This document shows, one piece after another, positions 32,015 to 42,163 of a stretch of 64,000 nt of DNA. This stretch comes from an uncultured Candidatus Saccharibacteria bacterium (GTDB lineage Bacteria; Patescibacteriota; Minisyncoccia; Phycocordibacterales; CAYRGE01). The position numbers were made by a program, and so were the translations under genes. The notes beneath the pieces were generated by a model. The model saw nothing but the letters and a program-made list of their open reading frames with translations. It was not told the origin of the DNA and made no database searches. The stretch is from contig CAZTCT010000002.1 in NCBI GenBank assembly GCA_964612415.1, positions 13,631-77,630 on the forward strand, read 5' to 3'. Every line of letters starts with the position of its first letter. The stretch's first letter is position 1.

Positions 32015-32077
32015 TTCAAATGTACGAGGTGGTTTAAAAAACGGCTCAACCGATCGGTTGAGCCGTTTTTTGCCCCT
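32015..32077. repeat. Repeat copy 2 (palindrome 32041..32066) between convergent folA and the ROK kinase gene
   Basis: About 60 nt nearly identical to copy 1, including the aaatgtacgaggtggtt extension. Confidence 0.85.
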
Positions 32078-32926
32078 CTAGAGGCCTTTTTGTCGCAAAT
32101 ATGCCATAGCCCCATGGACCCCCATTTCATCCCCAAATACTGCAGGGACTATCTCTGGCGCAACGGGGATAGTCCCCCTAATAGTGTCCTCAAGGCAAAG
32201 GCGCACCTCTGGGATGGGTATCCCGATCTTATTCATCATAGAACCCCCCAAGACAATGACCTCGGGTGACCAGAGCATGCAAATATCATGAAGCCCATAG
32301 GCAAGCCATTTGGCTTTTTCTTTCCAAAACTCTTCATCAGTGATTTCAACTGGCTTTCGTCCCTCATGTTGCTCAGTACAGGCGCCACTTATATAGCTTG
32401 CAAGATATCCCCCGCCGCAAATGTTTTGCGTATCGTTTAGTTTAGAGGCATCCACAATAAGCCAACTTGGCTCAAATCCTGTTGCACTCTCATCAATACG
32501 TCCGTCAACAAAACGGCATCCTCCAACTCCAGTACTTACTGTTATGTACGCCGCGATCCGTCGTCCTTGCGCTGGTCCATACGTGACTTGTGCAAGTCCC
32601 CCCATCGCAGCATCATTTTCAATAAAGACCTTACACCCGAGCGCGTTTTCAAATTGATCTTTTATTGGCTGTCGCAACCAGCCCTTAATATTTGTCCCGC
32701 CAGAAACCAATTCCGTTTTTTCGGCATTCGGAGAAGCTGCAACGCCAATTGCCGCAGCCTTAAGCGGCGTATCCCCACGAAGTTCTGTGATGACGCGCAC
32801 CACTTCGCTCACTCCTTCATGAAAATCAGGTGGTGTAGAAAAAACTTTTACCTCCCCAAAAGTGAGGAGGTCTGCCGAAAGCGCTACGCGTGTTTTTGTT
32901 CCACCGATATCAACTAGTGCGTACAT
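32078..32926 (-). CDS. ROK-family sugar kinase (glucokinase-like)
   Basis: N-terminal DIGGTKTRVAL, ENDAAMGGLA, VSTGVGGC ROK/actin-like ATPase motifs; last gene of the glycogen-PPP operon. Confidence 0.75.
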   Translation of the reverse strand: MYALVDIGGTKTRVALSADLLTFGEVKVFSTPPDFHEGVSEVVRVITELRGDTPLKAAAIGVAASPNAEKTELVSGGTNIKGWLRQPIKDQFENALGCKVFIENDAAMGGLAQVTYGPAQGRRIAAYITVSTGVGGCRFVDGRIDESATGFEPSWLIVDASKLNDTQNICGGGYLASYISGACTEQHEGRKPVEITDEEFWKEKAKWLAYGLHDICMLWSPEVIVLGGSMMNKIGIPIPEVRLCLEDTIRGTIPVAPEIVPAVFGDEMGVHGAMAYLRQKGL

Positions 32927-32935
32927 AGGATAATT

Positions 32936-33910
32936 CTACACGCCCGCAGGAAGGGCGCAACCATTAAACGCCCGCACCTGTTCATTGTATTGGGCAACTC
33001 TTGTTTTGATCGAGGCAATAAGATCATTCACTTGAGCCACAAGAGTATTGTACTGATTAACTTTCGCATTATATGCATCGAAGTCTTGTTTTGACATACT
33101 ATTGAGTTCTTCACCCATAACATCTAGTTGTGCTTTGAGTGTGTCAACAGTTTTTTGATCTTGTTCAATACCTGCTTTAAGTTCGGGGCTTGGGCTTGGG
33201 CATGCAGACAGTGACCTGCCAAATTCCTGCACCGCCATCCACACTGTTCTGCCCTCATATGTGCCCTTCTTTACAGAAACGCCAATCTCCTGGTAAAGCG
33301 GATTGAGAATGTTAGCACGATGACCAGGACTATTCATCCACGCATCTACTAAATCAGCATCACCATCAAACGTCCCCATCGCAAGATTTTCTCCAATATT
33401 CACATACGCATATCCAACGCGAGCTGCGAGCGTCTCTACATTTGCTCCTGTAGGTGATTCGTGCTCAAAGTATTGGAGCTGAAACATATCATCTACCTTG
33501 AGTTCTGCCGCATTCCCTAACCGCGCATTTTCGAGAAGTGCAGGCAGTCCGTGTGCCACACGCTGCTTATTGGTCTCAGCAATCACTCCTGAGATTGTAA
33601 TCGTGTGAGGATCAGAAGGTGTGACATTTATATTTTTGACAAGCGGTGCGGGCTTTGACACGACCTTCCCTTCCACTGATTCGTTCTTTACAGTCTCTTC
33701 TAGCGGAGCAATTGCGTCATTCCCATCCCCCACCCCTGATGCCGAAACACTCCCTTCATTGGGCGAGACGACGTTGGCAGGAATTTTTACCGCATTTTGA
33801 TATGCAACATCATTTTTAAAATCCACAACATTCTCAATCTGAAAATAGACGAAGGTGGCAGAGCCAATGAATGCGAGAAGTGCAAGTACAAAAAGTTTAA
33901 GGAATTGCAT
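32936..33910 (-). CDS. CAP/SCP (YkwD-like) domain protein with N-terminal TM and C-terminal coiled coil
   Basis: CAP core with SPGHRANIL motif. Confidence 0.75.
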   Translation of the reverse strand: MQFLKLFVLALLAFIGSATFVYFQIENVVDFKNDVAYQNAVKIPANVVSPNEGSVSASGVGDGNDAIAPLEETVKNESVEGKVVSKPAPLVKNINVTPSDPHTITISGVIAETNKQRVAHGLPALLENARLGNAAELKVDDMFQLQYFEHESPTGANVETLAARVGYAYVNIGENLAMGTFDGDADLVDAWMNSPGHRANILNPLYQEIGVSVKKGTYEGRTVWMAVQEFGRSLSACPSPSPELKAGIEQDQKTVDTLKAQLDVMGEELNSMSKQDFDAYNAKVNQYNTLVAQVNDLIASIKTRVAQYNEQVRAFNGCALPAGV

Positions 33911-33911
33911 A

Positions 33912-34682
33912 TTAGACCAATGCTTTTATTTTACTAAGTGTATTATAGAGCGCGCGATCAGTATAGAGCGTCCCTGGCACCTCACGGAGTATACGTGCAG
34001 GAGTATCCGCGAGCGAACCATTTTCGGTCATTTTGGCGATCGCCCCTGCTTTCCCTTCTCCTGTTGCAAATACATATACCTGTTTCAATTCCTTTAGAAA
34101 TGTCATGGTGGCCGTTATACGAACTCTAAACATATTTTTGCCTCCTGCGTCGTATGTACTGACCCACTCTTTGCCGCAAAATTGTTCTTGAAAGAAAGCC
34201 TGATCTTCTGGATACGGCATGATCCCCGCCGTATGTCCATCCGCCCCAATCCCCGCAGTTGCGATCATTTCCCCTTTTGGATATTTTTTCCTCCATGCGT
34301 GGAGAAGTTTTTCAAATCCTTTTGCGATACTCTCAGGACTGCGTGACTCCCCTTGCTTGATCTCTATGAAAGAAACCCCTTTGTCTGCCGCAACATGCGC
34401 AAACCGCATGAGTGACAGTGCCCGAGAATTGCTAGTCCTCCCCGTTGGGTCGTACCGCTCATCCAAAACGCCTATAGTAAGGTATCCACCAAGCACTTTC
34501 TTGTCCACGTGCCCGAATATACCGAGCGCAGTGCCTCCAGAGGCGAGTAGTAAGATGGGCTGTTTTTTGCGTTTGGCAATACGCAAATATCGCGATAAGT
34601 CCGCTGCGGCAACGCGCGCAGCTTCGTCTGCTGTCCTTTCAACATTGACAGTAAGTGCCCCAATGACATCAGTAACCGCCAT
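33912..34682 (-). CDS. pgl: 6-phosphogluconolactonase (NagB/Pgl family)
   Basis: Glucosamine-6-P isomerase/6PGL fold (LLASGGT..., GADGHTAG); sits in zwf-gnd-pgl order. Start at MAVTDVIG (34682) avoids overlap with gnd. Confidence 0.75.
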   Translation of the reverse strand: MAVTDVIGALTVNVERTADEAARVAAADLSRYLRIAKRKKQPILLLASGGTALGIFGHVDKKVLGGYLTIGVLDERYDPTGRTSNSRALSLMRFAHVAADKGVSFIEIKQGESRSPESIAKGFEKLLHAWRKKYPKGEMIATAGIGADGHTAGIMPYPEDQAFFQEQFCGKEWVSTYDAGGKNMFRVRITATMTFLKELKQVYVFATGEGKAGAIAKMTENGSLADTPARILREVPGTLYTDRALYNTLSKIKALV

Positions 34683-34683
34683 T

Positions 34684-35577
34684 TTATTTTTTTGAAACGT
34701 CGTGCCCGCCAAATTCGTTGCGGAGCGCAGACACTACCTTTCCTGTGTATGTCTCGTTACCTTTTGACTGCACACGAAAATCTAGTGCGGCCTCAATCGC
34801 CGGAGTCGCAAGCTCCTGCTCTTTTGCCTCCTCAACGGTCCACATCCCCTCCCCCGAGTGTGCAACTTCTCCAGAAATATCCGAAAGTGCACTCCCATGT
34901 TTTTTGTATGCGGACACAAGCCACTCAATAAGCCGCGACTCAATCACACTTCCGTGATTATACAAATTCGCGACCGCCTCAAGATCAAGGTCAAACTGTG
35001 AATTTTGCATCAGCGCAAATCCTTCCCCAATGGATTGCATCATGCCATATTCAATGCCATTGTGAACCATTTTCACAAAATGCCCGGAGCCAGAGGCACC
35101 ACAATACAGAAGTGCGTCCTCTGCGGCGATGTCTGTAAAAAGTTTTTTGTGCGCATCAAAAGTCTCTTTCTCTCCTCCTACCATGACACATGCGCCAGTT
35201 TTTGCGCCACCCGGGCCACCACTCACCCCCGCATCAAGATACTTAATTCCTCTACCCTCCAGCATTTTTGACCTAATGACCGTCTTTTTGTAAGGAGAGT
35301 TGCCTCCATCAATGATCGTGTCGCCTGATTCAAGCTGCGGCAAGAGCTCAGCGAGTACGGCATCAACAACCCCGTGCGGAACCATGAGCCATACCGTTCG
35401 CGGAGCTGAGAGTTTTTTGAAATCTGCAACACTTTCGGCGACCTCTGCGATGTCTGCCGCCTTTCCTCTAGCTCCCTCGTTCGCATCGTAAGCCAATACA
35501 TCCCACCCCACATTCACAAGGTGAGATATCATATTGAGCCCCATTTTTCCCAATCCAATGTATCCAATTTTACTCAT
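34684..35577 (-). CDS. gnd: 6-phosphogluconate dehydrogenase, short (about 300 aa) form
   Basis: N-terminal IGYIGLGKMGLNM Rossmann motif and 6PGDH core. Confidence 0.85.
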   Translation of the reverse strand: MSKIGYIGLGKMGLNMISHLVNVGWDVLAYDANEGARGKAADIAEVAESVADFKKLSAPRTVWLMVPHGVVDAVLAELLPQLESGDTIIDGGNSPYKKTVIRSKMLEGRGIKYLDAGVSGGPGGAKTGACVMVGGEKETFDAHKKLFTDIAAEDALLYCGASGSGHFVKMVHNGIEYGMMQSIGEGFALMQNSQFDLDLEAVANLYNHGSVIESRLIEWLVSAYKKHGSALSDISGEVAHSGEGMWTVEEAKEQELATPAIEAALDFRVQSKGNETYTGKVVSALRNEFGGHDVSKK

Positions 35578-35581
35578 CGCT

Positions 35582-36994
35582 TTATTCTACCTCAAGTTGT
35601 TCGCCTTTCTTATATTTTACCAAAGGTAACGTCCCCCACGAATTGATAATGGGCGTAATGAAGGCCCACGCCCTCTCAACTTCATTTGTACTTGCAAAGA
35701 GAGTTTGGTCTCCAATGATACTATCGTAGAGAACCTTTTCATACGCATCCGGTATGGGTAATGTGTCCGCATCGCCATTGTAGGCAAACGAGAGAAGGCG
35801 GGCGGCAAGGTCATGGTCAAACCCAGCTTTTCTTGCCCAAAACCGAACAGATATACCTTCGTCAGGTTGTATGCGAAATACTAAAACATTTTCATGCTCA
35901 ATCTCGTCATCATGTGAACAGAGACATGTGTCGCTATGTTTAAATGTAACGCGAATCTCAGTCTTCCGCTCCGCAAGCGCTTTCCCGCTTTCAAGATAAA
36001 ATGGCACCCCTTCCCAACGGGGCATGTTTAAAAATGCACGCAGCTTAAAGTATGTCTCCGTCTGCGAGTGAGGGCTAACACCTTTCCCTAATGCATATTC
36101 ATTATACTGAGCGCGAAACGCATCAAGAGTAACATCAAGTGGCGCTAGGGCGTCAAAAACTTCCGCCCTTTTCGCGCGTATAGAGTCAGCAGACATGCCA
36201 TCAGGTCTGTTCATCGCAACAAGCGCAAGCATCTGCAAGATATGGTTCTGCCCCACATCCCGCAGCTCTCCAACTCCATCGTAAAAGTCACCCCGAAATG
36301 ATAAATCAGAGGTGTCGCTCATCATTATCTCCACTTTTCGGATGTGCTCTTTATTCCACAATGGCTCAAAAAGGCGGTTTGCAAATCTAAACATCAAAAT
36401 ATCCTGTACAGCGTTCTTCCCAAGATAATGATCGATTCGGAAAATTTGCTCCTCTTTGAACAGCAGCCCTAGTGTTCGGTCGAGCTCTTTTGCTGTCTTG
36501 ATATCTTTCCCAAATGGTTTTTCAATGAGAATACGGGTCCACCCAGTTTTATCACTACAAGAAAGTGAGAGTCCTGAATTAGCAATTTGCCCAATAATAT
36601 CTTCGTAGTGCCCAGGAGAAGCTGCGAGATAAAGTAACTTATTCGTACACATCTTGATTTGCTTCTCAAACGCAATGACCGCAAGCGCAAGCGCCCCATA
36701 TGCATCTGCAGAATTAAAGTCCCCGGACAAATAGTGGATACGTTCAACAAAGGCACGCACCTTGTCTTTGTCTGCAACGCGCCCAAGAATGCTCTCCCTC
36801 TCCACGAACTCGCGATACTCTGCATCGCTAAACTCCCTTCGCGAGAAACCAATGAGCCGCCATTGATCAGGCAAAAGACCCCTGCTGTAGAGATCAAAAA
36901 GTGCGGGAAGGAGTTTTTTGCGTGCTAAATCTCCAGTGCCGCCAAATATTACAAAAATAGTAGGGACATTCCCTACTTTTATCTTCTCGGGCAT
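35582..36994 (-). CDS. zwf: Glucose-6-phosphate 1-dehydrogenase
   Basis: RIDHYLGK and EKPFGKD signature motifs. Confidence 0.92.
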   Translation of the reverse strand: MPEKIKVGNVPTIFVIFGGTGDLARKKLLPALFDLYSRGLLPDQWRLIGFSRREFSDAEYREFVERESILGRVADKDKVRAFVERIHYLSGDFNSADAYGALALAVIAFEKQIKMCTNKLLYLAASPGHYEDIIGQIANSGLSLSCSDKTGWTRILIEKPFGKDIKTAKELDRTLGLLFKEEQIFRIDHYLGKNAVQDILMFRFANRLFEPLWNKEHIRKVEIMMSDTSDLSFRGDFYDGVGELRDVGQNHILQMLALVAMNRPDGMSADSIRAKRAEVFDALAPLDVTLDAFRAQYNEYALGKGVSPHSQTETYFKLRAFLNMPRWEGVPFYLESGKALAERKTEIRVTFKHSDTCLCSHDDEIEHENVLVFRIQPDEGISVRFWARKAGFDHDLAARLLSFAYNGDADTLPIPDAYEKVLYDSIIGDQTLFASTNEVERAWAFITPIINSWGTLPLVKYKKGEQLEVE

Positions 36995-37009
36995 ATGTTC
37001 TCGTGTAAT

Positions 37010-39013
37010 CTAATTTTTGTCCGCCTCGTGCTGGTAGAGCGGATCACATTCAAGGCACAAACCGAGCTCTTCAAGCCGGTCGAGATATTTTATCACAGTG
37101 ATGACATACTCTGAATGGCTCCATGCCAGGGGAGCTGCCGAAATCTGAGCTCCTGTCTCTGGGTCAAGTTGCTCGGAGAGCACCCCGCTTTTGCGGGCAT
37201 GATCGACTGTCCAGCGCAACCAGCCCTTGGCAACTGCGAAATCATTAGAATTTTTTGCCTTTGCGATGTAGTATTGCGCAAGCCATAGTGTGGTAATAAA
37301 CCACGGATTGCCCGTCACCTCCTTTCGGGTCTTGTAGAACTTGTCCCCTGTATATCGGGCGATGCCTCCAATGAGGGTTGGAGCTGCGAGCTTTTTTTCT
37401 ACAAGCATGATCATCTCATATAAGCGCGGATCATCCGGAGGAAGTACTCCAAACGCGAAAAGTCCGTACACACTGCTCATATCAAGAGTATCGTCAACAG
37501 TCTTTTTGCCTTGTTCAAAGTTTACAAGTTTGTAAAACATTTTTTGCTGCGGATCATAGAGGTGTGTCAAAATAGCTTCCTTCACCTCCTCTGCGGCACT
37601 TTTGTAATACTCCTGGCTTCGCTTTTTCCCAAGTAATGCTGCAAATTGCGACGCGGCATTCAGAGCGCCGTAGACCGTACAGGCAGTAAATGTGGAAATG
37701 CCGTACTTCTCTTCCCAGAGATCATAACTTGGATGTGGAAGTCGAGAAGTTTCATCTCTGAAAAGTACCATAAAGTCTGCTGCCTTTTTGATAAGCGAGT
37801 TGTAAATAGTTTCAATGAACTCCACATCGTGAGAAAGTGTGTAGTGCTTCCAGAGACTCAAGAGAACAAGGGCTGTTTCATCTTCTTGTATTGGGAGCTG
37901 AAATTCCCCTCCACGTATCCAGGGCTGCCATGAGCTTCCAAGCGATCCATCTGGACGATATTTGTGCATAAAATATCCGCCGTCAGAGATAATTTCATCA
38001 CACATACGGAAGAATCGCTGGGCGGAATTAAAGTCACCTGCCATATCGAGCGCCATAGAGGCATACGCTGCATCTCTCGGCCACATGTAGCTATATGTGT
38101 CTTTTCCGCCCTGGAGCATGTCTGAGTCGCCAGATGCGATGATAGAGCCGCGCATGTCCGTATGCGCTCGAATAACAAAAAGTGATTTCTTAAAAAGCTT
38201 GGTCACCGACTCATCTAGGTCGTGGAAATTAAACTTCTCCTTTTTTATCCATGCATTCCAAAAATCATGCGTTGTTCTGATCATATGCTCTGGAGTCTTA
38301 CTCATTGTGTAGTCAGAAATTTGTCGGGCTTCAGAGACAGATTCCGCTGAGACAAGCCAGTAATAAAGCACTTTCTCCTCCCGAGGATCATACACACGAT
38401 AAAATCCGACCACCGAGTCAGTGGGCCCATGCTCTATCGCATTGCGGGACAAAACCCCATCCTCAGCGTCTTTGTACGATCCTTCTTTGCCTTCAATATT
38501 GAAAACCCCAGTGGTGTAGTCATCAAAAGGCCTGTCATTACACCTGCCTCCGATAGCAAAAACTCGTTTACCGCTATAGTGAACGATTACATGATTGCGC
38601 GGGTCAAAATATGCCGTGTCACCACTGTGTGCACCTGAAATCTCAAACTCATGTGCAAAAAAAACTTTTATTGTTCGTTTTTGATCGGAAAGGTTGCGGG
38701 TAATACACCTGCGCAAAAAAACATTTTTTTCATTATAAATTGTGTCCGATATCTCAAGCTCTACTTGCAGTTGCTCATTACGGGCAATGGTCTTGCCAGC
38801 AAGCGCGTCATCGGCACTCTCCACACTCACCTTCCAAGATGGGTCGGAAAGCCATTTGAGTGTGCCGTCTACCCACACACCGATCCTATGTCGAGAGTGC
38901 CCACTGATATGATTTTCTAACCCAATGTACGGGAAATACAAATCCCGAACGAACGCGTGTTCGTCAAGGCAGACCATCATATTGCCGTTCCCTAGGGCAA
39001 GATGACGCGGCAT
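37010..39013 (-). CDS. GH15 family glucoamylase/glucodextranase-like glycoside hydrolase
   Basis: Archaeal-type GH15 N-domain plus (alpha/alpha)6 catalytic domain (recalled COG3387-like pattern). Confidence 0.75.
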   Translation of the reverse strand: MPRHLALGNGNMMVCLDEHAFVRDLYFPYIGLENHISGHSRHRIGVWVDGTLKWLSDPSWKVSVESADDALAGKTIARNEQLQVELEISDTIYNEKNVFLRRCITRNLSDQKRTIKVFFAHEFEISGAHSGDTAYFDPRNHVIVHYSGKRVFAIGGRCNDRPFDDYTTGVFNIEGKEGSYKDAEDGVLSRNAIEHGPTDSVVGFYRVYDPREEKVLYYWLVSAESVSEARQISDYTMSKTPEHMIRTTHDFWNAWIKKEKFNFHDLDESVTKLFKKSLFVIRAHTDMRGSIIASGDSDMLQGGKDTYSYMWPRDAAYASMALDMAGDFNSAQRFFRMCDEIISDGGYFMHKYRPDGSLGSSWQPWIRGGEFQLPIQEDETALVLLSLWKHYTLSHDVEFIETIYNSLIKKAADFMVLFRDETSRLPHPSYDLWEEKYGISTFTACTVYGALNAASQFAALLGKKRSQEYYKSAAEEVKEAILTHLYDPQQKMFYKLVNFEQGKKTVDDTLDMSSVYGLFAFGVLPPDDPRLYEMIMLVEKKLAAPTLIGGIARYTGDKFYKTRKEVTGNPWFITTLWLAQYYIAKAKNSNDFAVAKGWLRWTVDHARKSGVLSEQLDPETGAQISAAPLAWSHSEYVITVIKYLDRLEELGLCLECDPLYQHEADKN

Positions 39014-39019
39014 GAGATT

Positions 39020-39358
39020 TTATCGATATGAAGCAAGCCGTTTAGCAACCGCTTTTTGAGCAGCATTTTGACTTTTTGCTGCACGAAGCGATTTGGCACA
39101 TGCTGCATCTTGGAGTATGTCATTCACCCACGAGGCAAAGTCGTTGCGCCCCTTTTCAACATGATACCCGTACTGCTCCGCCGATATCTCCTTGAGCGCA
39201 GTTGAAAGTTCTTTGAGATCTTTGAGTACTGGGCCATTATTCACCCAAAAACACACTTCTGCAGAAGCAACGACTAGCTCCTTGCCTCTTTTCTTTGCAG
39301 GAGTTTTAGCTTTTGTTTTCGTTGTCTTCTTTGTTGTTTTTATAGTTTTCTTTTTCAT
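39020..39358 (-). CDS. Small protein with Lys-rich histone-like N-tail plus a conserved-looking C-domain (CFWVNNGPVLKDL...), hypothetical
   Basis: MKKKTIKTTKKTTKTKAKTPAKKRGK tail; embedded between GH15 and GH57 with 6-14 nt spacers. Confidence 0.5.
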   Translation of the reverse strand: MKKKTIKTTKKTTKTKAKTPAKKRGKELVVASAEVCFWVNNGPVLKDLKELSTALKEISAEQYGYHVEKGRNDFASWVNDILQDAACAKSLRAAKSQNAAQKAVAKRLASYR

Positions 39359-39371
39359 AATATTTTTTTAA

Positions 39372-40607
39372 TTATACCAAAAGTTTCTCTCTTTCTCCTC
39401 TCGCACCTTTACTTTCTCGCTCCACGCGTATCTTAAGATCGTTAATCGCGTTCATAAAAGCGATATACGCCTCGTATGGAGACTCATACGGATTGAAGTA
39501 TTTATGTACGTCTCCATCTGCAAACCACTTAGTGCACATGTAGTAGAAGTGGTCTGATGTTTGAAGTCTCCTCCAATCACGAATGATATCGAGATTCTTG
39601 GTTGCAAGTACCGCGTCTTCTAGCGCATAGATGCTTTCGAGTGCATTGTGCTGTAGTGGGTTAGACCTCCACGCAGAGAGATCTCGCTCAACATCAGCCC
39701 AAGACACATAGTGCGGAACGTCTAGCTCACCTACAGATGGATAGCGCAACGCCGCTTCAGTTGGCGTCACAAAGTCATTGTCGGGGTGTTTGAGTACTTC
39801 CCCAGGCAAAGCGCGCAAGAAATCAAAGATGCCTGTATCTGCCCATTGGTGCTCGCCAAACGTTTCGTAATCCATGAAGAGATTCACTACATTGCCATTT
39901 CCATTCACCGCAGATACCCATTGTGCAAACTGTGGTGCGGTAAGTGGGTACCCTGCCCAATCTCGAGAGGAAAAGCGGAAGGCAATGTCGTCTGAAAGGC
40001 GATAGTGTTTGAGTAAGAGCTTAATGTTTTTTGCACCCGGCGCGCTATAGAGGAAAGAAGGGCTTTTCCACCCAAGAATATGATCTGCTCCTTCCGCAAT
40101 GATGCCAAGATATCCCATCTCAGCGGCTGTTTTTGCAACTTCATTGCTGAAAATAAGCTCAGTATTTCTAAAGACACGTGGAGTGTAGCCAAAAAGTTTT
40201 TTGACTTTCTGCTTATGAAAAAGTACTTGCTTCTTGAATTCCTCTTTGGAGTAAAGGAAAGCGAGTGAATGAAAATATGTCTCACTCAGAATTTCAACTC
40301 TTCCTGTGTCCACAAGCCGCTTAAATGAGTCAAGTGTCTCTGGAGAAAATTCTTCAAGTTGATCCAAAAAGACCCCTGACAGGGAGAAGCTTACTCGAAA
40401 GTCTGGATATTGATTGAGCAAATCAAGAAGAACTGCGTTTGCTGGCAGGTAGCACTTCCCCGCTACCTTATTCAAAACTTTTCTATTGTTTGTGTCACGT
40501 TCCGCCTCATCATTGAAATATTGATGATCCTTCCCAATATCAAAAATTCGATATCGCTTAATGCGATATGGTTGGTGTACCTGAAAATAAAAGCAGACTG
40601 ACGCCAT
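39372..40607 (-). CDS. GH57 family alpha-glucan-active enzyme (amylase/branching-enzyme type)
   Basis: N-terminal CFYFQVHQPYR matches the GH57 (HQP) signature. Confidence 0.78.
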   Translation of the reverse strand: MASVCFYFQVHQPYRIKRYRIFDIGKDHQYFNDEAERDTNNRKVLNKVAGKCYLPANAVLLDLLNQYPDFRVSFSLSGVFLDQLEEFSPETLDSFKRLVDTGRVEILSETYFHSLAFLYSKEEFKKQVLFHKQKVKKLFGYTPRVFRNTELIFSNEVAKTAAEMGYLGIIAEGADHILGWKSPSFLYSAPGAKNIKLLLKHYRLSDDIAFRFSSRDWAGYPLTAPQFAQWVSAVNGNGNVVNLFMDYETFGEHQWADTGIFDFLRALPGEVLKHPDNDFVTPTEAALRYPSVGELDVPHYVSWADVERDLSAWRSNPLQHNALESIYALEDAVLATKNLDIIRDWRRLQTSDHFYYMCTKWFADGDVHKYFNPYESPYEAYIAFMNAINDLKIRVERESKGARGEREKLLV

Positions 40608-40609
40608 AA

Positions 40610-41824
40610 TTATTTTTTAAATAACGAATGATAAATATCAATGCACCTCTGTGCCGCACGCCTCCAATTGAGCCCTTGCACCTCTCCTCTACTGTAGTCT
40701 CTTAGAGTTGAGTGGAGTGTTGGGTGTTTCAACACACTCAAAATTTTATTTGCAGTCTCATCAATATCCCAGAAATCAACCTTGAGCGCATGAGTGAGTA
40801 CTTCCGATACGCCTGACTGCTTAGAGATAATGACAGGAACCCCGCTTGCGACCGCTTCAAGCGGAGTAATGCCAAAAGGCTCCGAAATAGAAGGCATTAC
40901 AAATACATCCGCGACTCGATAAAGCGATTTGAGATCATCTCCTCGCAAAAACCCGACAAAGAGGAGTTTCTCTCCTATCCCAAGATACGCCGCCTCATTC
41001 ATGATCTTGTGCTGCATATCTCCTGACCCAGAAACGACGAACAATACGTTTGGATCATGCTCCAGCACCTTCTTGGCTGCACGTACAAAATATTCAGGAC
41101 CCTTTTGTATTGTGATACGCCCCACGAAAAGAACGATTTTGCGCCCGCCAGCCTTGAGGGCAGCAAGACTATCGGCGTAAGATGACGGCGCCCACTCGTC
41201 GCCATCAACGCCATTATACACGACCTGAACCTTCTCTCTTGGCACTCCGTAGTGCACAACGAGTTTCTCCTTCGTTTGTTCACTTACTGCGATGATGAGA
41301 TCTGCCTCTTCCATTGATGAGCGCTCAATGTTGTACACATCCTGATTGACTCCATGCCCGCCAGTGCGATCAAACTCGGTGGCATGCACATGCAACACAA
41401 GCGGTTTACCACTTACACGCTTGGCTTGAACTCCTGCGAGAAATGAAAGCCAGTCATGTGCGTGGATTACATCAAAATCTTCCTCTTCTGCAATTTCACG
41501 GGCCAGCACACCATACCTTCTCACCTCATCTATCAGCGAAAGCGCGAACATGCCTTTCCCTTTGCGCAACATCTCGGCGTATTTCTCAGAGGTAAGGTAG
41601 GGGTACAGATACGCGGGCACATTTCTAAATTTCAAACTCACGCCTTTATCAGCAAAGCGCAGTTTTGCATATGGTGAATCTACGGGAACTGTTTTGGGGA
41701 GTACGAAAGTGACTGAAACGTCCTCCTCGCACAATGCCTTTGTGAGGCCAAAACATGCAGTCCCCAGCCCTCCACTATTGTGGGGTGGGAATTCCCATCC
41801 AAACATAAGAACTCGTAAAGGCAT
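40610..41824 (-). CDS. glgA: Glycogen synthase-like retaining glycosyltransferase (GT4/GT5)
   Basis: MPLRVLMFGWEFPPHNSGGLGTA N-terminus, GT-B C-terminal E-x7-E region; ORF-track start at 41869 adds 15 unconserved aa. Confidence 0.75.
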   Translation of the reverse strand: MPLRVLMFGWEFPPHNSGGLGTACFGLTKALCEEDVSVTFVLPKTVPVDSPYAKLRFADKGVSLKFRNVPAYLYPYLTSEKYAEMLRKGKGMFALSLIDEVRRYGVLAREIAEEEDFDVIHAHDWLSFLAGVQAKRVSGKPLVLHVHATEFDRTGGHGVNQDVYNIERSSMEEADLIIAVSEQTKEKLVVHYGVPREKVQVVYNGVDGDEWAPSSYADSLAALKAGGRKIVLFVGRITIQKGPEYFVRAAKKVLEHDPNVLFVVSGSGDMQHKIMNEAAYLGIGEKLLFVGFLRGDDLKSLYRVADVFVMPSISEPFGITPLEAVASGVPVIISKQSGVSEVLTHALKVDFWDIDETANKILSVLKHPTLHSTLRDYSRGEVQGLNWRRAAQRCIDIYHSLFKK

Positions 41825-42163
41825 TGGCGTTATATGAACTTCTGTGCGGGATAAAACAACGGGCAACAACTCTATGCGGCGCTAAGACTGAAAAAGAAAG
41901 TGGCGGGTACACATTGCCCCATCACATATAGCGCGTGTGGGAATGAGCCCGCCTTGCATAAAGTCATTACTTTTTATTTTCATGGTTGTACAGTGACGCT
42001 CGTTTGCTCGTGAGCGGTGCTATACGCAAATGACGGCAACCCGACTTTTGCCGAACTTTGCGCGCACACTTCATTTTAGCACGCAACTTCTCTCTTCTGC
42101 CATAAAAAATCTGTTAATAATGCGCTCCTGGCGCGAAATTGGGTATGGTATAGTTGTTCCTGT

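What the first reader, a model, noticed from the sequence alone, without database searches (positions are those of the whole stretch)
32078..41869. Long co-directional glycogen-to-pentose operon (glgA, GH57, K-rich protein, GH15, zwf, gnd, pgl, CAP-domain protein, ROK kinase)
Nine genes lie on the minus strand with 1-15-nt spacers or overlaps. Together they encode alpha-glucan synthesis and degradation, glucose phosphorylation and the complete oxidative PPP branch.

This is a coherent storage-glucan-to-NADPH/pentose module of the kind known in reduced fermentative genomes.

Two embedded genes are unexpected. A histone-like Lys-rich protein (39020..39358) sits between the two glycosidases. A membrane-anchored CAP/SCP-domain protein with coiled coil (32936..33910) sits between pgl and the kinase.
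Basis: partly seen in the sequence, partly recalled or inferred. Interest (0 to 1): 0.5.

Follow-up and report, generated by a model that had tools for sequence, protein, structure and literature searches.

The report
Storage-glucan to pentose operon in CPR bacterium
A nine-gene operon in a tiny-celled (Patescibacteria/CPR) bacterium makes an internal starch-like reserve, breaks it down to glucose and oxidises that to a pentose; one of its two "odd" genes is a recurrent helper of the glucan enzymes and the other is a passenger.

Summary
Nine minus-strand genes (32078-41869) are packed with gaps of -29 to 15 nt. A divergent gene lies upstream, and one strong terminator (32036-32071) follows the last gene.

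The enzyme calls largely hold: GT-B glucosyltransferase, GH57, GH15, Zwf, short Gnd, Pgl-like and a ROK kinase. All are predicted cytoplasmic, so the glucan is internal.

Four refinements:
- **GT:** it is closer to GT4/GlgM-type enzymes than to GT5 GlgA.
- **GT-GH57 pair:** GT precedes GH57 in 55 of 56 related loci. Sulfolobus genetics place a GH57 on the synthesis side, not the degradation side.
- **CAP protein:** it matches the description (anchor, CAP domain, helical hairpin) but is extracytoplasmic. It is embedded here only in the nearest relative, so it is a passenger.

The zwf/gnd/pgl insertion is a minority variant. Overall this is a new variant of a known kind, of moderate interest.

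The parts
41870..42163 (-). Intergenic promoter/leader region upstream of the GT. It contains an extended -10-like TGCTAAAAT at 42073-42081 and an imperfect inverted repeat at 42025-42039 / 42048-42062.
   Evidence: Sequence inspection and inverted repeat search. There is no Rfam match and leader folding is only modest (z -2.15). The promoter assignment is inferred, not shown.
40610..41869 (-). GT-B retaining glucosyltransferase, GT4-like ('glycogen-synthase-like'). The likely true start is ATG 41824 (404 aa). Proposed role: alpha-1,4-glucan (or maltose-1-P) synthase.
   Evidence: Pfam: Glycos_transf_1 128 bits, Glyco_transf_4 93.5, Glyco_transf_5 60.8. NCBIfam: TIGR02149 glgA_Coryne 152 bits (cut-off 302) and TIGR02095 glgA 83 bits (cut-off 328). 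PDB: GlgM 6TVP 1e-24, and a full-length match to Pyrococcus abyssi glycogen synthase at 4e-17. It lies immediately upstream of GH57 in 55/56 loci.
39372..40607 (-). GH57 'alpha-amylase-like' enzyme, 411 aa, cytoplasmic. Proposed role: glucan-processing or branching partner of the GT.
   Evidence: Pfam GH57 246.8 bits. The nucleophile Glu in FRNTELI aligns with the catalytic Glu of T. litoralis 4-alpha-glucanotransferase 1K1W. HQP, MDYETFGE and SDHFYY motifs are visible in the sequence. No signal peptide or TM segment. The anabolic role is inferred from PMC8158581 and PMC11046441.
39020..39358 (-). 112-aa protein with a polybasic disordered tail (residues 1-27, net +12) and one OrfY/DUF5752-type helical unit (residues ~33-111). 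Proposed role: optional adaptor/tether of the GT-GH57 module.
37010..39013 (-). GH15 glucoamylase-type exo-hydrolase, 667 aa, cytoplasmic. Releases glucose from the glucan.
   Evidence: Pfam GH15 109.7 bits. TIGR01577 oligosaccharide amylase 361.7 bits, below the 820.7 cut-off. PDB relatives: dextran dextrinase, glucan 1,4-alpha-glucosidase, bacterial glucoamylase 1LF6. The Sulfolobus GH15 Gaa deletion raises glycogen (PMC8158581).
35582..36994 (-). Glucose-6-phosphate dehydrogenase (Zwf).
   Evidence: TIGR00871 464.5 bits, above the 400.6 cut-off. Pfam G6PD_N and G6PD_C.
34684..35577 (-). Short-form decarboxylating 6-phosphogluconate dehydrogenase (Gnd, 297 aa).
   Evidence: TIGR00872 gnd_rel 359.6 bits, above the 297.2 cut-off. 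An Asp ends strand beta2 (LAYDAN), which suggests NAD+ preference. That is inference from the sequence.
33912..34712 (-). 6-phosphogluconolactonase-like protein. The likely start is ATG 34682 (256 aa).
   Evidence: Pfam Glucosamine_iso 62 bits, above cut-off 27. TIGR01198 pgl 43.8 bits, below cut-off 124. The position next to zwf/gnd is also seen in L010.
32936..33910 (-). Membrane-anchored extracytoplasmic CAP/SCP (YkwD-like) protein with a C-terminal disulfide-bracketed helical hairpin. Interpreted as a passenger gene.
   Evidence: Pfam CAP 59.3 bits. Hydrophobic residues 1-26. AF2 pLDDT 87: helix 2-36, linker, CAP 83-233, helices 242-271 / 277-319. Foldseek top hits are extracellular bacterial SCP proteins 4IFA and 4D53. 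C237 and C318 are invariant in 38 homologs. Context is not conserved.
32078..32926 (-). ROK-family sugar kinase. Proposed glucokinase.
   Evidence: Pfam ROK 99.8 bits. TIGR00744 75 bits, below cut-off 260. No CxCGxxGC zinc motif. A ROK gene ends the cassette in many relatives.
32036..32071 (-). Intrinsic terminator of the nine-gene unit.
   Evidence: A 10-bp GC-rich stem, GATC loop and T6, flanked by A6. dG -33.7 kcal/mol, z -6.6, and 0 of 200 shuffles fold as well.
33068..33097 (-). Candidate internal sigma-70-like promoter (ATGTCA-18-TATAAT, 10/12) inside the CAP gene, about 140 nt upstream of ROK.
   Evidence: Consensus scan only. It found 29 promoter-like sites against 18.4 +/- 4.3 expected by chance, so this is weak.

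Best explanation
The block is one transcription unit of a Patescibacteria (CPR) bacterium. It runs an intracellular alpha-glucan reserve and channels its glucose into the oxidative pentose-phosphate branch.

**Synthesis arm.** This is an archaeal-type, obligately paired GT4-like glucosyltransferase plus a GH57 amylase-like enzyme. The GT is proposed to extend chains. The GH57 is proposed to process or branch them.

**Small protein.** The 112-aa protein directly downstream is a single OrfY/DUF5752-type helical unit with a polybasic tail. I propose it is a non-catalytic, dispensable adaptor. It would bind the GH57 (or the GT, or the glucan) through the conserved unit. It would tether this to a polyanionic surface through the tail, most likely the inner face of the membrane.

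**Catabolic arm.**
- GH15 glucoamylase releases glucose from the glucan.
- The ROK kinase converts glucose to glucose-6-P.
- Zwf converts glucose-6-P to 6-phosphogluconolactone.
- Pgl converts the lactone to 6-phosphogluconate.
- Short-form Gnd converts 6-phosphogluconate to ribulose-5-P, CO2 and reduced nicotinamide cofactor.

**CAP gene.** It encodes an unrelated cell-surface protein that was inserted between pgl and ROK in this lineage and is simply co-transcribed.

**Shown:** gene identities at family level, cytoplasmic or extracytoplasmic topology predictions, operon boundaries, synteny statistics, and fold relationships.

**Inferred:** single-transcript status, substrate specificities, the anabolic role of GH57, and the adaptor role of the small protein (about 0.4 on its own).
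For: - **Packing and boundaries:** gaps are no more than 15 nt, and the only strong terminator follows the last gene.
- **Family assignments:**
- **Topology:** eight products lack any hydrophobic segment. Only CAP has one.
- **GT-GH57 pairing:** GT precedes this GH57 clade in 55/56 metagenomic loci.
- **Cassette context:** GH15 with or without PGI, ROK or zwf/gnd follows in bacterial loci. In Altiarchaeota locus L031 the cassette abuts a GT3 glycogen synthase (519 bits) and a GDE-type debranching enzyme.
- **Sulfolobus genetics (PMC8158581):** glgA and the GH57 gene amyA are co-transcribed, and both are needed for glycogen accumulation. Deleting GH15 gaa raises glycogen.
- **Review (PMC11046441):** GH57 amylase-like enzymes are kept wherever classical branching enzymes are missing. 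GT4-GH57 clusters exist in archaea, with the GT4 role unresolved.
- **Small protein, structure:** the core is conserved (CFWVNxGPVL...H...RNDFAxW...LxD). The fold and sequence link to OrfY 4CSO.
- **Small protein, linkage:** GH57 lies upstream in 41/44 loci. Archaeal loci carry 2-4 tandem copies.
- **Small protein, variants:** there is a natural GH57-unit fusion in L103. Eight GH57-linked copies carry a C-terminal TM anchor and 56/117 carry polybasic N-tails.
- **CAP:** it is in-operon only in the closest relative. It is absent from the L010 and L058 operons and sits in unrelated contexts elsewhere.
Against: - There are no transcript data, so internal promoters cannot be excluded. One candidate lies at 33068-33097.
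- No NDP-glucose pyrophosphorylase, phosphoglucomutase or non-oxidative PPP gene lies in the 64-kb window. The donor supply and the fate of ribulose-5-P are therefore unverified.
- The GT, GH15, Pgl and ROK products all score below the curated equivalog cut-offs, so their specificities are inferred.
- Co-transcribing a synthase and a glucoamylase implies a futile cycle unless there is post-transcriptional control, and none is identified.
- The small gene is absent from about 59% of GH57-seeded loci, with GH57 abutting GH15 directly. It is not required for the core chemistry.
- The GH57 fusion is a single contig and could be an assembly or frameshift artefact.
- Polybasic tails and the PDB label 'transcription factor' fit a nucleic-acid-binding role equally well.
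Confidence: 0.7

Rival explanations
1. The small K-rich protein is a nucleic-acid-binding regulator or nucleoid-associated ('histone-like') protein. It would control the operon, perhaps by sensing a sugar metabolite through the conserved unit and binding DNA or RNA through the polybasic tail.
For: The tail has a net charge of +12 over 27 residues, and KKT/AKK tails of 20-100 residues are typical of stand-alone family members. The only solved relative, 4CSO, is labelled 'transcription factor' by its depositors. Family members also occur outside glucan loci, for example next to a Cu-ATPase/CsoR cluster, and fused to KaiC-like ATPases. Optional presence (about 41%) is typical of regulators. An imperfect inverted repeat lies near the -10-like element.
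Confidence: 0.3
2. The block serves scavenging of exogenous or host-derived starch or maltodextrin rather than turnover of an internal reserve. GH57 and GH15 would degrade imported oligosaccharides, and the GT would make something else, such as a glycolipid or a surface glycan.
For: Patescibacteria surveys bin GH13, GH15 and GH57 as amylose-degradation genes (PMC9868632). GT4 is functionally diverse and the GT fails the curated glycogen-synthase models. No glgC, galU or pgm lies in the window.
Against: GT and GH57 are paired in 55/56 loci. Both glycosidases lack export signals. No transporter lies in or next to the operon. The same cassette sits beside a GT3 glycogen synthase and a debranching enzyme in L031. 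The GT N-terminal domain matches the starch-synthase catalytic domain, and the GT aligns full-length to an archaeal glycogen synthase. Sulfolobus GH57 is anabolic by genetics (PMC8158581).
Confidence: 0.12
3. GT4 and GH57 form a two-step relay analogous to actinobacterial GlgM/GlgE. The GT would make maltose-1-phosphate, and the GH57 would polymerise it, rather than the pair acting as synthase plus branching enzyme.
For: The best solved and curated relatives of the GT are GlgM-type enzymes: 6TVP at 1e-24 and TIGR02149 at 152 bits. The pairing is obligate. In L031 a separate GT3 glycogen synthase co-exists with the pair, which hints that the GT4 does something different. The review states that the GT4 role in archaeal glycogen clusters is unresolved.
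Against: The GT scores far below the TIGR02149 cut-off (152 against 302). No GH57 is known to use maltose-1-P (my knowledge, plus the activity list in PMC11046441). This is purely analogical.
Confidence: 0.1
4. The nine genes are not one operon. They form at least two units, for example a glucan module and a PPP/kinase module with internal promoters, assembled by recombination.
For: In Sulfolobus, the synthesis and degradation genes are separate transcripts (PMC8158581). A promoter-like site lies inside the CAP gene, upstream of ROK. The part downstream of GH15 is modular across relatives. Strain contig L001 shows a sharp identity break inside GH15.
Against: All junctions are 15 nt or less, which leaves no room for intergenic terminators or promoters. 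Hairpins inside coding regions are short and weak. The only strong terminator follows ROK.
Confidence: 0.2

Closest known systems
Sulfolobus acidocaldarius glg cluster: glgA (GT5), amyA (GH57), saci_1199, gaa (GH15), glgX (Lee et al. 2021, PMC8158581)
   Same: It has the same enzyme set around a glucan: a glycosyltransferase next to a GH57 'amylase', a small gene, then a GH15 glucoamylase. The GT and GH57 genes are co-transcribed and both are required for glycogen. GH15 drives degradation.
   Different: There the synthase is GT5, while here the GT is GT4-like. Sulfolobus has two divergent transcripts plus a GlgX debranching enzyme, and no kinase or PPP genes. Here there is one co-directional unit that continues into ROK, Zwf, Gnd and Pgl. 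Whether saci_1199 (labelled 'glgC' in that paper) is an OrfY/DUF5752 protein is my untested suspicion.
Archaeal GT4-GH57 glycogen-gene clusters (Picrophilus torridus with GH133; Methanoculleus bourgensis) described in Cifuente et al. 2024 (PMC11046441)
   Same: A GT4-type glycosyltransferase is clustered with a GH57 amylase-like gene in organisms that lack classical GlgA or GlgB. The function is flagged as unresolved.
   Different: Those clusters are in free-living Euryarchaeota. No OrfY-type unit, GH15-ROK or oxidative PPP extension is described there. Homology of those GT4 and GH57 genes to the window's genes was not tested here.
OrfY of Thermoproteus tenax (PDB 4CSO) / Pfam DUF5752 (PF19027)
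   Different: OrfY/DUF5752 is a tandem duplication of the unit (216 aa). The window protein is a single unit with a polybasic tail. Identity is only about 20%. OrfY's genomic context and function could not be retrieved.
Classical bacterial zwf-pgl-gnd oxidative pentose-phosphate genes
   Same: Zwf and short-form Gnd pass curated equivalog cut-offs. A Pgl-family gene is adjacent.
   Different: They are embedded downstream of a glucan cassette and a glucoamylase and followed by a kinase. Gnd is the 297-aa short form and possibly prefers NAD+. Pgl is divergent and below the TIGR01198 cut-off.
Bacterial extracellular SCP/CAP (YkwD-like) proteins, e.g. B. anthracis 4IFA and Borrelia BB0689 (4D53)
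   Same: The CAP alpha-beta-alpha domain and extracytoplasmic location are shared.
   Different: The window protein has an N-terminal membrane anchor and a CPR-specific C-terminal helical hairpin. The hairpin is bracketed by two invariant cysteines and carries YN-x-x-V repeats. Its function is unknown.

Membership tests
GH57 glycoside hydrolase family | Match to the GH57 catalytic domain with the conserved catalytic nucleophile Glu (CSR-3) and acid/base Asp (CSR-4). | tested here: met
   PF03065 scores 246.8 bits against a 21.2 cut-off. The Glu in FRNTELI aligns to the catalytic Glu of 1K1W in WLTERVW. The Asp in MDYETFGE was identified by eye from the sequence.
GH57 glycogen branching enzyme (GBE-GH57) | Size of about 520-560 aa with the branching-enzyme C-terminal helical domain, sequence similarity to solved GBEs, and demonstrated alpha-1,6 transfer. 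| tested here: not met
   The protein is 411 aa. No solved GH57 branching enzyme is hit at E<=1, only 1K1W 4-alpha-glucanotransferase. Activity is not testable here, so 'works like a branching enzyme' remains an open hypothesis from PMC11046441.
GT5 glycogen synthase GlgA (TIGR02095) | Score at or above the curated cut-off of the ADP-glucose-type glycogen/starch synthase model. | tested here: not met
   82.8 bits against a 328.45 cut-off. The Glyco_transf_5 N-domain scores 60.8 bits, weaker than Glyco_transf_4 at 93.5.
GT4 GlgM / 'glgA_Coryne' (TIGR02149) | Score at or above the curated cut-off, and maltose-1-P synthase activity. | tested here: not met
   152.4 bits against a 302.4 cut-off. 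It is the best PDB relative (6TVP, 1e-24, partial). Activity is not testable here.
GH15 glucoamylase / oligosaccharide amylase | GH15 catalytic (alpha/alpha)6 domain, plus a curated equivalog score. | tested here: inconclusive
   PF00723 scores 109.7 bits against a cut-off of 22 (met). TIGR01577 scores 361.7 against 820.7, and TIGR01535 scores 104.9 against 741.9 (both not met). So this is a family member whose specificity is inferred.
Glucose-6-phosphate dehydrogenase (TIGR00871) | Equivalog score at or above the cut-off, with both G6PD domains. | tested here: met
   464.5 bits against 400.6. G6PD_N scores 185 bits and G6PD_C 273 bits.
Short-form decarboxylating 6-phosphogluconate dehydrogenase (TIGR00872) | Equivalog score at or above the cut-off. 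| tested here: met
   359.6 bits against 297.2.
6-phosphogluconolactonase (TIGR01198) | Equivalog-domain score at or above the cut-off. | tested here: not met
   43.8 bits against 124.45. Only the superfamily model PF01182 passes (62 against 27). The function is inferred from its position next to zwf/gnd.
ROK glucokinase (TIGR00744) | Subfamily score at or above the cut-off, plus the CxCGxxGC zinc motif. | tested here: not met
   75.2 bits against 260.35. The motif is absent. Pfam ROK passes (99.8 against 22.9). This is a ROK-family kinase with an inferred substrate.
DUF5752 / OrfY family (PF19027) | Score at or above the gathering threshold, the OrfY fold, and the two-repeat architecture of the 208-position model. 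| tested here: inconclusive
Histone-like / nucleoid-associated proteins (HU, H1/Hc1-like, archaeal histone) | Match to a histone, HU or Hc1 fold or family. | tested here: not met
CAP/SCP superfamily (PF00188) | CAP domain match and the alpha-beta-alpha sandwich fold. | tested here: met
   59.3 bits against 21.1. The AF2 model has pLDDT 87 and Foldseek hits to 4IFA, 4D53 and GAPR-1. YkwD TIGR02909 scores 101.4 against 171 (not met).
Operon (single transcription unit) | Co-directional genes, no internal terminators or promoters, and one transcript. | not testable with these tools
   Spacers are 15 nt or less and one strong terminal terminator is present. Transcript continuity needs RNA data.

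The most novel reading that the evidence does not exclude
The OrfY/DUF5752-type unit is a dedicated, previously unrecognised accessory subunit of an archaeal-type GT4-GH57 glucan-synthesis machine. That machine would replace the classical GlgA/GlgB pathway. The unit would dock on GH57 and localise synthesis or the granule at the membrane through a polybasic tail or a TM anchor. The three-gene cassette would have been exchanged between CPR bacteria and DPANN archaea, two ultra-small, host-dependent lineages, giving both an internal carbon buffer.
Probability: 0.3. Interest if true: 0.65.

Novelty: new variant of a known kind. Interest (0 to 1): 0.45.

Why it matters
How organisms that lack GlgA (GT5) and GlgB build glycogen is an acknowledged open question. 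The 2024 Chem Rev review asks whether GH57 'amylases' are the missing branching enzyme, and says the GT4 role 'requires clarification'.

This locus and about 130 related loci show that a GT4-like transferase and one GH57 clade are an almost obligate pair. The pair is often accompanied by an uncharacterised OrfY-type unit, and the package occurs in both CPR bacteria and DPANN archaea at roughly 50-60% identity. That gives a compact three-gene system that could be tested directly by heterologous expression.

For CPR biology, it shifts the reading of GH57 and GH15 genes from 'environmental starch degradation' towards an internal reserve. In this lineage the reserve is wired to the oxidative pentose-phosphate branch, which yields reducing power and pentoses. 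That is relevant to how episymbionts buffer an intermittent supply from their hosts.

Tried and rejected
- **OrfY genomic context.** Literature searches for 'DUF5752', 'OrfY' + 'Thermoproteus tenax', and '4CSO' found nothing useful. Siebers 2004 is not held. PDB alignment with a two-repeat homolog did not print OrfY. So the link to the crenarchaeal glycogen cluster, including my suspicion that saci_1199 'glgC' is an OrfY homolog, stays untested.
- **AlphaFold-database fold search.** Unavailable.
- **'Histone-like' reading.** Rejected for the core domain. No histone or HU family or fold is hit. It is kept only as a description of the tail.
- **'Small gene is obligatory' reading.** This was suggested by the small-gene-seeded scan. 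It was rejected after the reverse, GH57-seeded test by tblastn (27/69) and by profile HMM (29/71). The gaps show true absence.
- **'CAP is functionally linked' reading.** CAP-domain hits occur 1.4-3.3 kb upstream of GT in 5/80 loci. They cover the CAP domain only, at about 40% identity, and at a frequency compatible with chance or local synteny. Rejected.
- **Riboswitch or structured leader.** No Rfam match and a folding z of only -2.15.
- **Internal terminators.** The consensus scan finds only short, weak hairpins inside coding regions. It also missed the real terminator, which was found by reading the sequence.

Full report
**Observation.** Spacers are 9, 1, -29, 4, 15, 6, 13 and 2 nt. Two mechanical ORF starts are probably too long. 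The GT most likely begins at ATG 41824 (MPLRVLMFGWEFPP, the N-terminus shared by relatives). The pgl most likely begins at ATG 34682 (256 aa, as called on contig L001 and in L010), which turns the 29-nt overlap into a 1-nt gap.

Upstream lies a 295-nt intergenic region and a divergent LOG-family gene. Downstream, directly after the ROK stop codon, is a textbook intrinsic terminator: CGGCTCAACC-GATC-GGTTGAGCCG followed by T6, at 32036-32071 (dG -33.7 kcal/mol, z -6.6). The consensus scanner missed it. No junction is long enough to hold a terminator or promoter. The hairpins the scan finds inside coding regions are short and weak. The flanking genes are housekeeping genes: UvrABC, TGT, DHFR, LOG, MGMT and an AddA-like helicase-nuclease. 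Named relatives of the products are all Patescibacteria/CPR.

**Enzyme identities.**
- Zwf (TIGR00871, 464.5 bits against 400.6) and the 297-aa short-form Gnd (TIGR00872, 359.6 against 297.2) pass curated cut-offs.
- GH57 (246.8 bits), GH15 (109.7), ROK (99.8), the Pgl-family protein (62) and CAP (59.3) pass Pfam thresholds. They fall below the narrower NCBIfam equivalogs, so their exact specificities are inferred.
- The GH57 keeps its catalytic nucleophile. FRNTELI aligns to WLTERVW of the T. litoralis enzyme 1K1W.
- The ROK kinase lacks the CxCGxxGC zinc motif.
- The GT is a GT-B enzyme whose N-domain scores better as GT4 (93.5 bits) than as GT5 (60.8). Its best curated and solved relatives are GlgM-type (TIGR02149, 152 against a 302 cut-off; 6TVP, 1e-24). 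It also aligns full-length to the Pyrococcus abyssi glycogen synthase at 4e-17. 'glgA' is therefore an over-call. 'Glycogen-synthase-like GT4' is the defensible label.
- Eight of the nine products have no hydrophobic segment. Only CAP does, at residues 1-26. The glucan handled by this operon is therefore intracellular.

An exhaustive profile search finds 4,702 cluster representatives (2,881 at E<=1e-10). Many carry long KKT/AKK tails. Others carry coiled-coil N-termini, KaiC-like or HerA-like ATPase domains, or C-terminal TM helices. No paper in the library mentions DUF5752.

**Linkage of the small gene.**
- *Seeding on the small gene* in species-representative genomes returned 48 loci. They come from CPR bacteria (Paceibacterota, Kaiserbacteria and others) and from DPANN-type archaea (Woesearchaeota, Nanoarchaeota, Altiarchaeota, and bins labelled Methanosarcinales). 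In 41 of the 44 loci with room, the same GH57 lies directly upstream, and GT nearly always lies upstream of that, on the same strand. Archaeal loci carry 2-4 tandem copies and no GH15. Bacterial loci carry one copy followed by GH15.
- *The reverse test*, seeding on GH57 in metagenomes, gave 80 loci. GT precedes GH57 in 55/56. The small gene follows in only 27/69 by tblastn and 29/71 by a profile HMM. In 17 of 24 GH57->GH15 junctions the gap is -22 to 137 nt, so the gene is truly absent.

The GT-GH57 pair is thus essentially obligate, and the small gene is a frequent but dispensable accessory.

**Architecture variants of the small protein.** In L103 a complete GH57 and a complete unit form one uninterrupted 486-aa ORF. 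Among 117 GH57-linked copies:
- 56 have polybasic N-tails
- 33 are bare units
- 15 have a non-basic N-terminal extension
- 8 end in a C-terminal TM helix, in some cases (L106, L110) after a long linker that is K-rich in L106
- 3 have polybasic C-tails
- 1 has both a non-basic N-terminal extension and a polybasic C-tail
- 1 is the fusion

A polybasic tail and a TM anchor look interchangeable, and one copy is fused to GH57. That pattern is what I would expect of an adaptor that binds the enzyme (or its glucan) and tethers it to a polyanionic surface, plausibly the membrane. It also recalls the membrane-bound glycogen fraction measured in Sulfolobus (PMC8158581). A nucleic-acid-binding regulator remains a serious rival, given the tail chemistry, the depositors' 'transcription factor' label, and family members in unrelated contexts.

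**What is known.** In S. acidocaldarius the cluster is glgX, gaa (GH15), saci_1199, amyA (GH57), glgA. The amyA and glgA genes are co-transcribed, and deleting either abolishes glycogen. Deleting gaa or glgX raises it (PMC8158581). [quoted passage not shown] It also describes GT4-GH57 clusters in Picrophilus and Methanoculleus, with the GT4 role 'requiring clarification' (PMC11046441). So the window's GT-GH57 pair belongs to a recognised but unresolved class, and GH57 is more plausibly anabolic than degradative. Supporting the glycogen context, the Altiarchaeota locus L031 continues with a GT3 glycogen synthase (519 bits) and a GDE-type debranching enzyme. L024 continues with a GH13 enzyme. 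I suspect saci_1199 (called 'glgC' in that paper) is an OrfY homolog, but I could not test this.

**The downstream half.** Among 14 non-redundant loci with GH15 and at least 2.5 kb downstream, six continue to ROK, with a PGI in between in the loci where that gene was checked. Four carry zwf with or without gnd or pgl, and four carry none of these. The general design is glucan -> glucose -> glucose-6-P. The oxidative-PPP insertion seen here is a minority variant. The Gnd has an Asp at the end of strand beta2 (LAYDAN), which suggests NAD+ rather than NADP+ use. This is inference only.

**The CAP protein.** The description holds. There is an N-terminal helix (2-36), a disordered linker, a CAP domain (83-233) and an antiparallel helical hairpin (242-271 / 277-319) (pLDDT 87). 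Extracellular bacterial SCP proteins are the closest structures. It belongs to a very large family (3,762 hits). All named members listed are Patescibacteria or unclassified bacterial bins. The family has invariant C237 and C318 and conserved YN repeats. It is embedded between pgl and ROK only in the closest relative, at 58% identity. It is absent from the otherwise similar L010 operon (zwf-pgl-ROK) and L058 operon (zwf-gnd-PGI-ROK). In other CPR genomes it sits in unrelated neighbourhoods. Being extracytoplasmic, it is topologically separate from the cytoplasmic pathway. I treat it as a passenger.

**Evolution.** NJ trees of GH57 and GT are congruent. The DPANN sequences form a clade beside or within the CPR diversity. 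Mean inter-domain identity (GH57 0.60, GT 0.50) is close to identity within CPR (0.63, 0.54). This indicates inter-domain transfer of the cassette. The direction is not resolved by these midpoint-rooted NJ trees.

**Verdict.** The block is an intracellular glucan cycle wired to the oxidative PPP (confidence about 0.7). The notable content is the obligate GT4-GH57 pair with its optional OrfY-type adaptor, shared by CPR and DPANN. This is a new variant of a known kind, and it offers a compact system for testing how glycogen is made without GlgA and GlgB.

Noticed in passing
window 32400-39400 compared with locus L001 (Logan ERR15459717_237873): There is a sharp mosaic. L001 is 100.0% identical to the window over about 46375-39376. 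It drops to 84-92% from the 3' part of GH15 through ROK, and to 71-82% around DHFR. It recovers to 93-98% in TGT/UvrB. This is either a strain-level recombination breakpoint inside the operon or a chimeric assembly.
   Followed up: partly
L103:1204-2664 (contig Ga0194111_10058774): A single 486-aa ORF fuses a complete GH57 to a complete OrfY-type unit through a short KE-rich linker. This is a possible Rosetta-stone fusion, but there is only one instance and the reads were not checked.
   Followed up: partly
L106:3992-5005, L110:6828-7580; also L050, L056, L059, L060, L061: GH57-linked copies of the OrfY-type unit end in a C-terminal hydrophobic TM helix; in L106 and L110 this follows a long linker, K-rich in L106. 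This suggests membrane-tail-anchored versions of the small protein.
   Followed up: partly
L015-L062 (genome loci) and L063-L142 (metagenome loci): The GT-GH57(-small) cassette occurs in both CPR bacteria and DPANN archaea. Inter-domain identity (GH57 0.60, GT 0.50) is about as high as identity within CPR, and the NJ trees are congruent. This implies inter-domain transfer.
   Followed up: partly
L031:5508-11747 (Candidatus Altiarchaeota, JAHIKS010000105.1): The cassette is followed directly by a GT3 (eukaryote-type) glycogen synthase (PF05693, 519 bits) and a GDE_C amylo-alpha-1,6-glucosidase. Two different glucan glycosyltransferases therefore sit in one cluster.
   Followed up: partly
window 33068-33097 (-): The best minus-strand sigma-70-like match in the region (ATGTCA-18-TATAAT, 10/12) lies inside the CAP gene, about 140 nt upstream of the ROK start. 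It is a possible internal promoter.
   Followed up: no
window 42025-42081: An extended -10-like TGCTAAAAT (42073-42081, minus strand) is followed by an imperfect 15-nt inverted repeat (42025-42039 / 42048-42062) in the 295-nt leader. There is no Rfam match.
   Followed up: partly
window 32936-33910 and alignment A2: The CAP protein belongs to a family of more than 3,700 proteins whose named members listed are Patescibacteria or unclassified bacterial bins. The family has a C-terminal helical hairpin bracketed by two invariant cysteines and containing regularly spaced conserved Tyr-Asn pairs. The function is unknown.
   Followed up: partly
L004-L006 (P0009, e.g. Ga0315284_10000365): A tail-less homolog of the small protein (about 50% identity) sits alone between a copper P-type ATPase/CsoR cluster and a Dus gene, unlinked to any glucan gene.
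   Followed up: no
proteins P0180, P0203, P0212: OrfY-type units are also fused to KaiC-like ATPase domains. In a 1,970-aa protein they are fused to HerA-like ATPase and CarboxypepD_reg repeats. The unit therefore looks like a general-purpose module.
   Followed up: no
window 1-64000: No Rfam family, including tRNA, reaches its gathering score anywhere in the 64-kb window.
   Followed up: no
PMC8158581 (S. acidocaldarius saci_1199): The small gene between GH57 amyA and GH15 gaa is labelled 'glgC' in that paper but was never deleted or assayed. Its position matches that of the OrfY-type gene here. The identity was not testable with the sequences available to me.
   Followed up: no
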